A stretch of 64,000 nt of DNA from positions 64,001-128,000 of the IMG/VR virus record IMGVR_UViG_3300014204_000113. One strand, given 5' to 3'. The position numbers and the translations under genes were made by a program. Source of the DNA: a virus. Taxonomy: Duplodnaviria; Caudoviricetes. Shown here in pieces: positions 14,356-52,549 of this stretch (positions are counted from its first letter, which is position 1; every line of letters starts with the position of its first letter). Below the pieces are notes generated by a model. It had not been told where the DNA came from, did no database searches, and saw only the letters and a list, made by a program, of their open reading frames with translations.

Positions 14356-14431
14356 GCGGGAATAGCTCAATTGGTAGAGCGCAGACCTTCCCGGTCTGAG
14401 GTTGAGTGTTCAAACCACTCTCCCTGCTCCA
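14356..14431 (+). tRNA. tRNA-Gly(TCC), atypical
   Basis: cloverleaf GCGGGAA...TCCCTGC-T-CCA; anticodon stem CAGAC/GTCTG, loop CT-TCC-CG; T-arm GAGTG-TTCAAAC-CACTC. Confidence 0.8.
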
Positions 14432-22444: not shown

Positions 22445-22472
22445 TTGACAACCCGATTCTAAGGTTTATAAT
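22445..22472 (+). promoter_or_regulatory. sigma70-type promoter
   Basis: TTGACA-16-TATAAT upstream of a GGAGG RBS and gene 22504. Confidence 0.65.
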
Positions 22473-22503: not shown

Positions 22504-22758
22504 ATGAAAACCCTATTCCTGATTTTGCTTCTATGTCTGCTTGCAAGTCCCGCATGGCCCAGAGACCACAACAATTATGTAATCAGAGACAAGAATTATA
22601 CTGTCAAAAATTATGTCAAAGATGGAAAAATTTATGATAAGAATTACCGTCTTGAAGGTTACATAAGTCCTAATGGCACTATCAGAGATAGAAATTATAA
22701 AACTGAAGGTTATCTTGACAGGAATAGAAGTGGCGGTCGCAAAGGGCGAAACAAATGA
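22504..22758 (+). CDS. secreted protein with three IxD(K/R)NY...Y repeats
   Basis: signal peptide MKTLFLILLLCLLASPAWP; repeats IRDKNY, IYDKNY, IRDRNY. Confidence 0.7.
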   Translation: MKTLFLILLLCLLASPAWPRDHNNYVIRDKNYTVKNYVKDGKIYDKNYRLEGYISPNGTIRDRNYKTEGYLDRNRSGGRKGRNK

Positions 22759-22928
22759 GAATTTCTGCTTACATTGTCATAATCGGTTTTGTCCTTGTAC
22801 TGGGTGGATGGATTTGGTTGGTGAATGATGTAGAATCCAAAAAACCAAGAGGTTTGAGTCCAAATCAGCAAGTAATGCTTGATAATGAAATATCAATCAA
22901 GAAAAAGATTTATGGTGATAGGAGATAA
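22755..22928 (+). CDS. small membrane protein (57 aa, below the ORF-track cutoff)
   Basis: ATGA overlap with the previous stop; N-terminal hydrophobic stretch. Confidence 0.55.
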   Translation: MRISAYIVIIGFVLVLGGWIWLVNDVESKKPRGLSPNQQVMLDNEISIKKKIYGDRR

Positions 22929-22929
22929 A

Positions 22930-22947
22930 TTATGATTAATCTTTACA
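22930..22947 (+). repeat. 18-bp direct repeat, left copy
   Basis: TTATGATTAATCTTTACA, identical at 24678-24695. Confidence 0.8.
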
Positions 22948-22983
22948 TTACCAAATGCCATTAGAAGAGAATAAAAAGTTTAC

Positions 22984-23058
22984 AGCATGGTTAGGCGAGT
23001 CCGGGCGATGCTAGGTAGGGCATGGCCAGGCGGGTCTAGGTGTGGCAGGTTGTGGCGA
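22984..23058 (+). ncRNA. GGC-NN pentamer array B1 (15 units)
   Basis: NN = AT TA GA CG GA TA AG AT CA GG TA GT AG GT GA; triplet mostly GGC/GGT with variants. Confidence 0.85.
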
Positions 23059-23106
23059 GGATTTAAAAAACGAAAAATCTAACACAAATAAAAGGAGGAA
23101 CAACAA

Positions 23107-23661
23107 ATGAACTTGGTACTGTGTAAATACAAAATTACTGGCTTATTTCCACTTTTAACCCACAGTCCTGCTGGAATGAGGCAAGCGGCCAATGCGCCAA
23201 AAGTCAAGAAGATTCCATCGCCAGAAGATGAAGCACAAGCTGGTTTGTATATTGATAATGATGGAAATTATTGCATCCCGTCTATTGCTTTTCGTTCAGC
23301 TTTATTGAATGGATTGAAAGGGAAAAAGATTGGCAAGGTGGGTGCAATTTCAGTGTTTCAAGCTGCGGTTTTTAACGTGGACGAATTGAGTCCATTAGTT
23401 GACCCTGAAACTGGGCGAGCATTAAGGGAATATACGATCGACACTCGTAGAGCTATCGTGCAAAGACAAGGAATTTTAAGAAACCGTCCAAGATTTGAAA
23501 AATGGGGATGTAATGTTTTTCTTCAAATCGACTTGGAAATAACCACACCTGAGCAAGTAGAAGAAGCATTGAATACGGCTGGTCAAATCATTGGCGTGGG
23601 TGATTTCCGTATTGAAAAGAGAGGAATGTTCGGTAAGTTTCAAGCCGAATTGGTTGAATAA
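23107..23661 (+). CDS. stand-alone RAMP/Cas7-like protein, paralog 2 (GGC arrays)
   Basis: ITGLFPLL, IPS, DTRRAIV...ILRNRPRF..W, AG..IGVGDFR....GMFGKF. Confidence 0.8.
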   Translation: MNLVLCKYKITGLFPLLTHSPAGMRQAANAPKVKKIPSPEDEAQAGLYIDNDGNYCIPSIAFRSALLNGLKGKKIGKVGAISVFQAAVFNVDELSPLVDPETGRALREYTIDTRRAIVQRQGILRNRPRFEKWGCNVFLQIDLEITTPEQVEEALNTAGQIIGVGDFRIEKRGMFGKFQAELVE

Positions 23662-23679
23662 AAGATTTTAAAGATTTGT

Positions 23680-23744
23680 GGCAAGGCGAGGCTGGGCTAG
23701 GCGGGGCTAGGCGGGGCTAGGCGGGGCTAGGTATGTCAAGGCGA
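23680..23744 (+). ncRNA. GGC-NN pentamer array B2 (13 units)
   Basis: NN = AA GA TG TA GG TA GG TA GG TA AT AA GA; internal (GGCGGGGCTA)x3. Confidence 0.8.
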
Positions 23745-23789
23745 GGTTTGAAAAAGAAATTAAGAACAAGAAATATAATGATTTTTCGC

Positions 23790-23839
23790 GGCGGGGTGGG
23801 GCGATGCCCGGCCCGGCATGGTAAGGCAAGTTAAGGCGA
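23790..23839 (+). ncRNA. GGC-NN pentamer array B3 (10 units)
   Basis: NN = GG GG GA CC CC AT AA AA AA GA. Confidence 0.8.
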
Positions 23840-23870
23840 GGGTTTTCAAACAAAACAAAGGAGAATAAAT

Positions 23871-24548
23871 ATGCTAATCAAAGCAGCAGAATTGATTGAG
23901 GATTTCAGTTTATATCCACGTTCCCAAGTGGACACAACACATGTAAGAAATATTGCAGAAGCAATGATGGCAGGAGAAAAATTTCCGTCTATCATCATTG
24001 ATGAACAAAATAGGATTATTGATGGCTTCCATCGGAAAAGAGCTACATTGAGGGTTTTTGGAGATGAGGCTGATATTGAAGTAGAAGTTCGACAATATGT
24101 TAACGATAAAGAAAGATTTCTTGATGCTTTGAGATATAATTCAAGACACGGTAAGGGAATAACTGGAGTTGAACAGACAGGAGCTATTTTGAAGGCTCAA
24201 GGTTTCAAGATTGACCCTAAATTTATCGCTTCTGCTTTGGGAATCAGCCAAGAAAGAGTCAAAGAAATCGTGCAATGTAAAGTCGGGAACATTCGCCAAG
24301 GTACGACTGCTCATGGAGACCCAGTTCCTCTAAAACGCTCTATGCAGCATTTTGCTGGGAAAGAAATGACTGTTGAGCAAGTTAAGGTGAATGATATGGC
24401 TCCCGGCACGCCACAATCTCTTCTTATCAATCAACTTATCGGATTTATTGAAAGCGGTAGTTTACAACTGGAAAATGAAAAGATTGTTAATGGACTCATC
24501 CATTTGAAGGAACTTTTAAATGGATTGGTTTTGGAAAAAGCGGTTTGA
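23871..24548 (+). CDS. ParB/Srx N-terminal domain protein inside the GGC module
   Basis: YPR, FPSIII, IIDGFHRKRA, N..HG, followed by a possible HTH (IASALGIS). Confidence 0.75.
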   Translation: MLIKAAELIEDFSLYPRSQVDTTHVRNIAEAMMAGEKFPSIIIDEQNRIIDGFHRKRATLRVFGDEADIEVEVRQYVNDKERFLDALRYNSRHGKGITGVEQTGAILKAQGFKIDPKFIASALGISQERVKEIVQCKVGNIRQGTTAHGDPVPLKRSMQHFAGKEMTVEQVKVNDMAPGTPQSLLINQLIGFIESGSLQLENEKIVNGLIHLKELLNGLVLEKAV

Positions 24549-24563
24549 AATAATTAAAGATTT

Positions 24564-24623
24564 GGCTCGGCTTGGTTGGGCGCGGCTAGGCTATGCGCGG
24601 CTTTGCGTGGCAGGGCAAGGCGT
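24564..24623 (+). ncRNA. GGC-NN pentamer array B4 (12 units)
   Basis: NN = TC TT TG GC TA TA GC TT GT AG AA GT. Confidence 0.8.
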
Positions 24624-24677
24624 GGATTTATCATCACAAAGAACAAATTTGAATTAAGTGAAACAGGAGGAGGTAAT

Positions 24678-24695
24678 TTATGATTAATCTTTACA
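24678..24695 (+). repeat. 18-bp direct repeat, right copy
   Basis: TTATGATTAATCTTTACA. Confidence 0.8.
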
Positions 24696-25565: not shown

Positions 25566-25652
25566 ATCGGTGTGGCGGAATGGTAAAGGCAATAGATTGC
25601 TAATCTATCTGGTGTCAAAGCCGCGAAGGTTCGAATCCTTCACTTACCACCA
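25566..25652 (+). tRNA. degenerate tRNA-Ser(GCT)-like (possible pseudo-tRNA)
   Basis: ATAGA-TTGCTAA-TCTAT anticodon arm, long variable arm, GAAGG-TTCGAAT-CCTTC, CCA; acceptor stem pairs poorly. Confidence 0.6.
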
Positions 25653-25663
25653 TTTTAAAATGT

Positions 25664-25739
25664 GGACTCGTAATTCAGTTGGTAGAAGCCTCAACTCATA
25701 ATTGAGTAGTCTCCCGTTCGAGCCGGGACGAGTCCACCA
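25664..25739 (+). tRNA. tRNA with CAT anticodon (elongator Met or Ile2)
   Basis: GGACTCG/CGAGTCC acceptor, CTCAA-CTCATAA-TTGAG, TCCCG-TTCGAGC-CGGGA, ACCA. Confidence 0.88.
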
Positions 25740-52445: not shown

Positions 52446-52520
52446 GGTATGGTCAGGTATGGTTAGGTAAGGTATGGTACGGTTCGGCGGGGTTTGGTTC
52501 GGTAAGGTAAGGTATGGTAA
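52446..52520 (+). ncRNA. GGT-NN pentamer array A6 (15 units)
   Basis: NN = AT CA AT TA AA AT AC TC GG TT TC AA AA AT AA. Confidence 0.88.
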
Positions 52521-52522
52521 GG

Positions 52523-52549
52523 TAGATGGGAGAGTCTATCTCCCATCTA
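52523..52549 (+). terminator. 11-bp hairpin closing array A6
   Basis: TAGATGGGAGA-GTCTA-TCTCCCATCTA. Confidence 0.7.

What the first reader, a model, noticed from the sequence alone, without database searches (positions are those of the whole stretch)
22630..23058. GGC array B1 encodes a foreign allele of the 84-aa secreted repeat protein
NN AT TA GA CG GA TA AG AT CA GG TA GT AG reads I-Y-D-R-D-Y-R-I-Q-G-Y-V-S against resident I-Y-D-K-N-Y-R-L-E-G-Y-I-S (22630-22668). That is 7 exact and 5 half matches (19/26 nt), including an Arg written AG in the array but CGT in the gene. The same code therefore works with a different constant triplet.
Basis: partly seen in the sequence, partly recalled or inferred. 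Interest (0 to 1): 0.88.

Follow-up and report, generated by a model that had tools for sequence, protein, structure and literature searches.

The report
Phage guide RNA targeting rival's gene

Summary
Array B1 (22984-23063) has 13 variable dinucleotides. They match codon positions 1-2 of the phage's own 84-aa gene at 19 of 26 letters. That match alone is borderline: it is the best site in the 188-kb genome, yet 15-49% of shuffled guides do as well somewhere.

The decisive result comes from relatives. No shuffle out of 4000 exceeded 21. Skips of 0, 2 or 3 bases gave only 17.

The flanking 184-aa protein is a Vipr homologue (profile E=6e-21 to the solved SUSP1 Vipr). B1, vipr, three more GGC arrays and a ParB-like gene form a 1.7-kb cassette that is absent from every relative found. 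Cassette-less forms occur in the same landfill and groundwater metagenomes.

Most likely function: RNA-guided silencing of a rival's operon while sparing the phage's own allele. Expression and binding are untested. This scan had already seen the layout of a guide beside its own resistant allele, at recA in this genome and in several other genomes.

The parts
22445..22472 (+). Perfect sigma-70-type promoter (TTGACA, 16 nt, TATAAT) ahead of the 84-aa gene. No terminator-like site lies between it and B1/vipr, so it probably also drives them. The same promoter stands at L002:2090-2117.
   Evidence: consensus scans only; function inferred
22504..22758 (+). Resident allele of the 84-aa signal-peptide repeat protein (beta-flower-like). 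This is the orthologue of the gene that B1 targets in rivals.
   Evidence: Pfam Bflower_2, 28.4 bits, below the cut-off of 38; alleles
22630..22668 (+). Resident counterpart of the target site (codons 43-55). It matches 19/26 guide letters (73%), below the published 80% target criterion.
22755..22928 (+). 57-aa ORF with a hydrophobic N-terminal stretch, conserved in all relatives between the 84-aa gene and the empty site.
22920..22947 (+). Left copy of an imperfect ~30-bp direct repeat (RBS plus ATGATTAATCTTTACA) that brackets the cassette.
22948..24664 (+). The 1.7-kb GGC-type VIPR cassette: B1, vipr, B2, B3, ParB-like gene, B4. It is absent from all relatives fetched that span the site (eight loci). 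Contigs in two metagenomes join 22919 to 24668 and 22928 to 24674.
22984..23048 (+). vrRNA B1 guide part: 13 units of GGY-like triplet plus NN. Four triplets are degenerate (AGC, GTC, TGC, GTC).
23049..23079 (+). 3' end of B1. The units GTT-GT, GGC-GA, GGA-TT do not match the target. The ending GGCG(A/T) GGNTT is shared by all four GGC arrays. A small predicted hairpin follows (GGAUUU...AAAUCU).
23107..23661 (+). vipr paralogue 2 (184 aa), a RAMP/Cas7-like protein homologous to SUSP1 Vipr.
   Evidence: (E=6.4e-21 to PDB 36pp_D)
23680..23749 (+). GGC array B2 (14 units, internal TA/GG duplication). Target not found.
23790..23844 (+). GGC array B3 (11 units). Target not found.
23871..24548 (+). 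225-aa ParB-like protein (a G-x-x-R-x-R-A motif within RIIDGFHRKRA, then an HTH-like stretch). It is conserved next to vipr in the cassette's relatives, so it is the candidate accessory (vap) gene.
   Evidence: phrog_1033, E=1.7e-12; Pfam ParB_N not significant
24564..24628 (+). GGC array B4 (13 units). Target not found.
24665..24695 (+). Right copy of the direct repeat. Homology to the relatives resumes here.

Best explanation
B1 is a guide-RNA gene (vrRNA) of a VIPR system carried on a 1.7-kb cassette of this 188-kb environmental phage.

How it most likely works: the transcript is probably made by read-through from the strong promoter at 22445 and bound by a filament of the cassette's Vipr protein (23107-23661). 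Each protomer hides one GGY-like triplet and presents the next two bases. The 13 presented dinucleotides pair with the template strand of double-stranded DNA, skipping every third base. They spell codon positions 1-2 of codons 43-55 of the 84-aa secreted-protein gene as it occurs in sister phages that lack the cassette (96% and 92% match), not as it occurs in this phage (73%).

Bound about 160 bp downstream of the rival's promoter, the complex most likely blocks transcription of that operon during co-infection. The ParB-like neighbour would act as an accessory DNA-binding factor.

Shown here: the array and its register, the 1-nt-skip match to natural alleles, Vipr homology, the presence/absence polymorphism of the cassette, and co-occurrence of both forms in the same samples.

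Inferred from the published type II systems: expression and processing of the RNA, filament formation, DNA binding, silencing, and any benefit to the phage.
For: (1) The match is 25/26 to L002 and 24/26 to L019 and L020, in frame with the skipped base at the wobble position. Own allele and seven other alleles score 18-21/26.
(2) 0 of 4000 shuffled guides exceed 21. Skips of 0, 2 or 3 bases and the guide read backwards reach at most 17.
(3) The guide has the same sense as the gene's mRNA, so it cannot pair with that mRNA. It must pair with the template DNA strand, as published for VIPR.
(4) A profile of the Vipr2 family hits the solved SUSP1 Vipr at E=6.4e-21 over its full length. The single sequence gives E=6e-6, with the G-loop motif aligned. 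The AF2 model (pLDDT 88) resembles Csm3/Cas7 RAMPs.
(5) Relatives of Vipr2 at 70-78% identity, in unrelated phage contexts, keep the layout array-vipr-array-ParB-like-array with GGC units.
(6) All relatives spanning the site lack 22948-24664. Cassette-bearing contigs (depth 4-5) and cassette-less joints (depth 9-35) occur together in one landfill run and one groundwater run.
(7) The published criteria are met: at least 80% NN match to a natural target, and no self hit at 80% or more.
Against: No RNA data exist for this phage, and no separate promoter or terminator for B1 was found.

Four of the 13 guide units and one of the three 3' units have non-GGY triplets (AGC, GTC twice, TGC, GTT). In SUSP1, perturbing the GGY motifs abolished silencing, so B1 could be weak or decaying.

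The 3' tail is short and its predicted fold is not significant (z = -1.6), unlike the SUSP1 pseudoknot.

The well-matched alleles were seen on only three contigs. No 26/26 allele was found.

Mismatch tolerance is unknown, so 73% identity to the phage's own allele may not be fully safe, and 81% (L005, L006) may or may not be targeted.

The targets of B2, B3 and B4 were not found.
Confidence: 0.82

Rival explanations
1. B1 is a relic guide. It is a genuine VIPR guide by descent, but its degenerate constant triplets mean it no longer assembles a working filament. The match to rival alleles is then history, not current function.
For: Five of the 16 triplets in the tract depart from GGY. The other GGC arrays here have only one to three such triplets among 11-14 units, and those in L013 and L017 are almost all clean GGC. 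Perturbing GGY abolished silencing in SUSP1. B2 shows an internal duplication, a sign of slippage in this cassette.
Against: The NN letters are kept at 24-25 of 26 against living alleles, while the resident allele differs at 7, so little random decay has occurred in the informative positions. The paper notes frequent internal degeneracy of natural vrRNAs. Register is kept without indels. The cassette is identical in contigs of two independent runs.
Confidence: 0.12
2. RNA-guided homing or marker exclusion. The cassette behaves like a free-standing homing-endonuclease gene. The guide marks the rival's allele about 290 bp from the empty site. A stall or cut there, made by the ParB-like protein or a host nuclease, is repaired from the cassette-bearing genome. 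That repair copies the cassette and its linked non-target allele into the rival.
For: The target lies next to the insertion point in cassette-less relatives. There is a presence/absence polymorphism, with both forms in the same samples. An imperfect ~30-bp direct repeat of flank sequence stands at both cassette ends. Three of 11 guides in this genome have their genome-wide best partial self-match within 1.5 kb, where about 0.016 is expected for each.
Against: No nuclease is demonstrated. The ParB-like call rests on a PHROG hit and a motif, and Pfam and the fold model gave nothing. Published VIPR type II systems silence rather than cut. Guides of the same cassette family in other phages (L013, L017) show no neighbour mimicry. 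The resident allele at the site is identical to that of a cassette-less relative (L012), so no special co-converted allele is evident. The flanks are mosaic everywhere.
Confidence: 0.15
3. Self-regulation. B1 binds the phage's own 84-aa gene through the partial match (19/26) to time or damp expression of its own operon.
For: The resident site is the best match in the phage's own genome. It lies in the same transcription unit, 354 nt upstream of the array.
Against: Foreign alleles match far better (24-25/26). The self-match is fully explained by orthology to those alleles. 73% is below the level at which natural targets were called, and no published system self-targets at 80% or more.
Confidence: 0.04
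4. Chance resemblance. The dinucleotide-to-codon match is numerology in an AT-rich genome with a repetitive gene.
For: The self-match alone is reached somewhere in the genome by 15-49% of shuffled guides. The gene has internal repeats that give secondary hits at +-48 nt.
Against: The match is 25/26 and 24/26 in independent alleles at the orthologous position. 0 of 4000 shuffles exceed 21. Only the 1-nt skip works.
Confidence: 0.01

Closest known systems
VIPR systems (Vipr RAMP protein plus vrRNA). Type examples are type II of Escherichia phage SUSP1 and the Pseudomonas fulva prophage. Sources: bioRxiv 10.64898/2026.04.26.720920, 10.64898/2026.04.26.720927, 10.64898/2026.10.15.759431.
   Same: The Vipr homologue hits the solved SUSP1 Vipr (PDB 36pp) at E=6.4e-21. 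The intergenic arrays of GGY/NN pentamers flank vipr on the sense strand, and the guide part of B1 has 13 units, within the published range of 9-16. The 1-nt skip rule holds, with the skipped base at the codon wobble position. The natural target matches above 80% and the self-match is below 80%. The target is a competing phage. An accessory DNA-binding-type gene sits beside vipr.
   Different: The accessory gene is ParB-like, and I could not find whether any published vap is of this kind. There is no SUSP1-type pseudoknot tail, only a shared GGCG(A/T) GGNTT end. The target is not a satellite, a prophage regulator or a rival's VIPR. It is the orthologous allele, in sister phages, of the gene lying one ORF upstream of the guide. 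The host phage carries three vipr paralogues (28-34% identical) with GGT and GGC array sets. The VIPR type could not be assigned.
Free-standing homing endonucleases of T4-like phages (seg and mob genes; intronless homing and marker exclusion). Recalled from my own knowledge, not tested against sequences here.
   Same: A small cassette is inserted between conserved genes and is present in some relatives and absent in others. Its recognition site lies in the neighbouring gene of cassette-less relatives, while the carrier's own allele is not recognised.
   Different: Recognition is by an RNA guide, not by a protein. No nuclease activity is shown. The known action of the VIPR type II systems is silencing.
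Class 1 CRISPR-Cas7 (Csm3/Cas7) backbone filaments
   Same: The predicted fold of the 184-aa protein is RAMP-like (Foldseek E about 1e-6 to Csm3 chains). A guide RNA would be held by a protein filament that breaks pairing periodically.
   Different: There are no cas1, cas2, CRISPR repeats or spacers. Pairing is 2 of every 5 guide bases with 2 of every 3 target bases. The system is phage-borne.

Membership tests
VIPR system | A Vipr protein: a minimal RAMP homologous to SUSP1 or P. fulva Vipr, with a G-loop | tested here: met
   phmmer gives E=6.1e-6 to PDB 36pp_D 'SUSP1 Vipr protein', residues 42-182, with the motifs GVGD(F/W)R and FG(K/R)F aligned. A family profile gives E=6.4e-21 over the full length. 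The AF2 model has pLDDT 88 and its best PDB folds are Csm3/Cas7.
VIPR system | vrRNA genes: intergenic tandem GGY/NN (YNNGG) pentamers, about 9-16 units, flanking vipr | tested here: met
   Four arrays of 11-16 units in strict 5-nt register stand around vipr2, all on the gene strand. B1 has five non-GGY triplets.
VIPR system | 1-nt skip code: NN letters match a natural target at 80% or more, with the skipped base usually at the codon wobble position | tested here: met
   L002 matches 25/26 (96%) and L019/L020 24/26 (92%), in frame with the skip at position 3. Other skips reach at most 17/26.
VIPR system | No self-target at 80% NN match or more | tested here: met
   The best site in the 188-kb genome on both strands is 19/26 (73%), or 20/30 with 15 units.
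VIPR system | An accessory vap gene beside vipr | tested here: inconclusive
   A 225-228-aa ParB-like gene is conserved next to vipr in the window and in loci L013-L018. Whether it corresponds to one of the published vap1-6 could not be checked, because no supplement is held.
VIPR system | A conserved, structured 3' tail after the repeat tract | tested here: inconclusive
   All four GGC arrays share the ending GGCG(A/T) GGNTT. Only a small hairpin is predicted, and the fold z-score is -1.6.
VIPR system | The vrRNA is expressed, co-purifies with Vipr, and the RNP binds dsDNA and represses transcription | not testable with these tools
   No RNA holder is listed among public runs. This needs a bench assay.
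Homing-type mobile cassette (intronless homing) | A nuclease that cuts the cassette-less allele near the insertion site | tested here: inconclusive
   No nuclease family was detected in the cassette. The ParB-like call comes only from PHROG and a motif. The fold model was too poor to search (pLDDT 49).
Homing-type mobile cassette (intronless homing) | Presence/absence polymorphism, with the recognition site close to the empty site | tested here: met
   The cassette is absent from all relatives spanning the site. The target lies about 290 bp upstream of the empty site in L002. Both forms occur in the same runs.
Pfam PF21785 Bflower_2 (5-fold beta-flower protein), for the targeted 84-aa gene | Score at or above Pfam's gathering cut-off | tested here: not met
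   The score is 28.4 bits against a cut-off of 38 (E=1.6e-6). Six of the seven related protein clusters carry a precomputed PF21785 hit. So it is beta-flower-like, but not filed as a member.

The most novel reading that the evidence does not exclude
The guide and its target's resident allele are kept side by side because the cassette acts as a selfish poison-antidote or homing unit. It disables, or triggers replacement of, the L002- and L019-type alleles in co-infecting sister phages. It can persist only when linked to a non-target allele. VIPR cassettes and solo guides would then spread through phage populations as RNA-guided analogues of free-standing homing endonucleases. The ParB-like partner would supply the DNA-level action, either a sliding-clamp silencer or a nickase.
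Probability: 0.22. Interest if true: 0.75.

Novelty: new member of a known kind. Interest (0 to 1): 0.5.

Why it matters
The result shows that the published VIPR code can be read from raw sequence well enough to predict the peptide of an allele that really exists elsewhere. It extends VIPR targeting from satellites, prophage regulators and rival VIPR loci to allele-specific attack on an ordinary orthologous gene of sister phages in landfill and groundwater communities. Armed and unarmed forms occur together there.

Three features are not described in the three preprints I read. They are the guide sitting one ORF away from the phage's own non-target allele, the cassette being an insertion with repeated flanks, and the ParB-like partner. 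If the layout reflects linkage or homing, it would say how guides spread without an adaptation machinery. The set of alleles at 73%, 81%, 92% and 96% match also offers a natural series for measuring the mismatch tolerance of a VIPR complex.

Tried and rejected
- Exact gapped-pattern scans of IMG/VR found nothing for 12 units of B1, 10 units of B4 and 10 units of B2. The B1 result fits the fact that both known target alleles carry one or two mismatches.
- B3 and B4 patterns with up to 3 mismatches found nothing in the complete 189.6-kb relative G001.
- All 11 arrays were scored against all fetched loci. Only B1 (84-aa gene) and A2 (recA; 32/36 in L007) gave hits at 80% or more over at least 13 units. 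A few 9-unit blocks at 15/18, including B2 in L007, were not pursued. I found no B2 match in any allele of that gene.
- blastn of 8 kb against GenBank phages found no match. A protein-pattern search for Vipr2 in IMG/VR found no relatives; relatives came from the protein database instead.
- RNA evidence: no RNA holder is listed among public runs. All runs laid were DNA contigs, so nothing can be said about expression.
- The AF2 model of the ParB-like protein from a 3-sequence alignment had pLDDT 48.7, too poor for a fold search. Sequence and profile searches of the PDB gave nothing significant. Pfam ParB_N was not significant.
- Guides of the same cassette family in L013 and L017 were tested for mimicry of their own neighbours. 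None was found.
- DNA for allele P0006 (peptide IYDRDYRIRGYIN) and for the P0015 contigs could not be fetched.
- No supplementary files of the VIPR paper are held, so the VIPR type and vap class could not be assigned.
- An RNA fold of B1 with its tail gave no significant structure. Rfam has no family covering the arrays.

Full report
WHAT IS THERE

The window is part of a 187,988-bp virus record with direct terminal repeats. It has 33% G+C, and nearly all long ORFs lie on the + strand. A scan for 5-nt periodic GG units finds ten arrays in the window, all on the + strand, and twelve in the genome. Six of the window's arrays use GGT. The four around 22984-24628 use mainly GGC.

The finding's array, B1, reads in GGY-NN register as 13 units at 22984-23048 plus three 3' units at 23049-23063.

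CHECK OF THE OBSERVATION

The 13 dinucleotides match codon positions 1-2 of the resident 84-aa gene at 22630-22668 in 19 of 26 letters. The Arg unit is AG in the array and CGT in the gene.

- This is the unique best site on both strands of the whole genome; the next best is 17.
- On its own the match is only borderline. 15% of unit-permuted guides, and 49% of guides redrawn from the pool of all arrays' dinucleotides, reach 19 somewhere in the genome.
- Within +-2.5 kb only 0.35% and 2.5% of such guides do.
- With 14 or 15 units the site merely ties for best.

THE DECISIVE TEST

I fetched alleles of the 84-aa gene from IMG/VR, JGI metagenomes, ENA and Logan.

- Eleven relatives' loci and the window's own gene were scored, about ten distinct alleles in all. 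Eight score 18-21/26 at the orthologous position.
- L002 (IMGVR_UViG_3300009285_001381) scores 25/26.
- A second allele class, on two ENA contigs (L019, L020; peptide IYDRDYRIKGYVS), scores 24/26. Its second Arg is AGG, which matches the guide's AG unit that misses in L002 (CGA).
- None of 4000 shuffled guides exceeded 21 over the relatives fetched at that point.
- With skips of 0, 2 or 3 bases, or the guide read backwards, the best score over 72 kb of relatives is 17. With a 1-nt skip it is 25.
- The three 3' units do not match. The last two belong to an ending, GGCG(A/T) GGNTT, shared by all four GGC arrays.

WHAT KIND OF THING IT IS

- VIPR systems consist of a minimal RAMP protein (Vipr) and vrRNAs made of alternating GGY and NN.
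- The NN letters pair with double-stranded DNA, skipping one target base per unit, usually the codon wobble base.
- Natural targets were called at 80% NN match or more, and no self hits reached that level.
- Type II systems silence transcription.

The criteria are met here.

- The 184-aa ORF just downstream of B1 hits the solved SUSP1 Vipr (PDB 36pp_D) at E=6.1e-6 alone, and at E=6.4e-21 over its full length as a 32-sequence profile.
- Its AF2 model (pLDDT 88) resembles Csm3/Cas7.
- B1 matches a natural target at 96% and 92%, and its own genome at no more than 73%.
- The guide has the sense of the mRNA, so it must pair with the template DNA strand and cannot pair with that gene's mRNA. This agrees with the published DNA targeting.
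- GGC is not a new triplet. The consensus is GGY, and the motif learned for SUSP1 is NNGGC.

THE CASSETTE

blastn against six relatives shows homology ending at 22948 and resuming at about 24660-24675 in every one. L019 and L020 likewise go from the 57-aa ORF to the next conserved gene.

- B1, vipr2, B2, B3, a 225-aa gene and B4 therefore form a 1.7-kb insertion.
- It is bracketed by an imperfect ~30-bp direct repeat of the RBS and first codons of the downstream small ORF.
- The 225-aa protein matches a PHROG annotated as ParB-like (E=1.7e-12). It has a G-x-x-R-x-R-A motif and an HTH-like stretch.
- Pfam, PDB sequence searches and a shallow AF2 model gave nothing usable for it.
- Vipr2 relatives at 70-78% identity sit in quite different phage contexts (DnaB/RusA; RecT/YqaJ). 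They keep the layout array-vipr-array-ParB-like-array with GGC units. The GGC preference therefore goes with this Vipr clade, and the ParB-like gene is its regular partner.
- Contigs of one landfill run and one groundwater run contain two forms. One is the cassette exactly as in the window (depth 4-5). The other is joints that skip 1745-1748 bp across it (depth 9-35). Armed and unarmed relatives therefore occur together. The run that may be the source of this DNA was not counted.

LIKELY ACTION

L002 has the same perfect sigma-70-type promoter as the window. The target lies about 160 bp downstream of it, inside the first gene of an operon. That operon continues with a 57-aa ORF bearing a hydrophobic N-terminal stretch, a small ORF and a weakly SLT-like protein.

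By analogy with type II VIPR, the Vipr2-B1 filament would bind there and block transcription in a co-infecting L002- or L019-type phage. The phage's own allele, with 7 mismatched letters, would be spared. This step is inference.

Caveats:
- There are no RNA data.
- No promoter of B1's own was found.
- Five triplets in the tract are degenerate.
- There is no SUSP1-like tail.
- The targets of B2-B4 were not found.

THE ADJACENCY

The guide lies 354 nt downstream of the resident copy of its target site. Three of 11 guides in this genome (B1, A4, A6) have their genome-wide best partial self-match within 1.5 kb, where about 0.016 is expected for each.

The scan has noted the same layout at recA here and in several other genomes. 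The three preprints do not mention it.

Two readings fit.
- Selection for linkage: a recombinant that joins the guide to a sensitive allele would target itself.
- A homing-like spread of the cassette.

Points against the stronger, homing reading:
- No nuclease is evident.
- The resident site is identical to that of the cassette-less relative L012.
- The same cassette family in other phages shows no neighbour mimicry.

VERDICT

The system is a new member of a published kind (VIPR). The open questions are the ParB-like partner and the layout with a linked non-target allele.

Noticed in passing
window 44601-44822 and 44844-46121: Rfam HEARO RNA (136 bits, E=4e-28) lies directly upstream of a 425-aa ORF. 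This is the usual layout of an IscB-type RNA-guided nuclease with its omega RNA, here inside a phage that also carries VIPR.
   Followed up: no
window 14356-14428, 25569-25649, 25664-25736: Three tRNA genes were found by Rfam. Two of them lie just downstream of the cassette region.
   Followed up: no
window 22920-22947 and 24665-24695: An imperfect ~30-bp direct repeat (RBS plus ATGATTAATCTTTACA) brackets the VIPR cassette. The empty sites of six relatives aligned have one copy. The left copy heads a truncated duplicate of the downstream small ORF.
   Followed up: partly
window 48598-48651 with array 48664-48768; window 52446-52525: Array A4 has its genome-wide best partial self-match (27/36) 66 nt upstream of itself. 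Array A6 has its best (20/26) on the minus strand within 1.5 kb. This is the same neighbour mimicry as B1.
   Followed up: partly
L008:226-831: A relative carries the GGT module behind recA (DUF559 gene and a 176-aa vipr) with three arrays. Their NN letters differ from those of the window's arrays at the same place, so guide content turns over between sister phages.
   Followed up: no
loci L005, L006, L019 (all from ENA sample ERZ27247780): At least three different alleles of the 84-aa gene (guide matches 21, 21 and 24 of 26) come from one sample. The alleles look mosaic, with variable patches at residues 33-36, 46-51 and 54-55.
   Followed up: partly
window 23680-23730 (loose ends): Many unrelated contigs in the landfill and groundwater runs lie on array B2 only by their GGC-NN repeats and run on into other GGC-type arrays. 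GGC-type vrRNA arrays therefore seem common in these communities.
   Followed up: no
genome 167541-167630 (39.5 kb beyond the window end), minus strand: This is the only GGT-NN array on the minus strand of the genome (18 units).
   Followed up: no
G001:C1:155058-155618 (record of L001): The complete 189.6-kb sister phage has only one distant vipr homologue (E=1e-9 to the profile), against three in this genome. VIPR content varies between close relatives.
   Followed up: no
L014:2235-2516: In one relative of the GGC cassette, a 93-aa ORF with a Cas12f1-like TNB domain hit (a TnpB-type fragment) lies just downstream of the ParB-like gene and last array.
   Followed up: no
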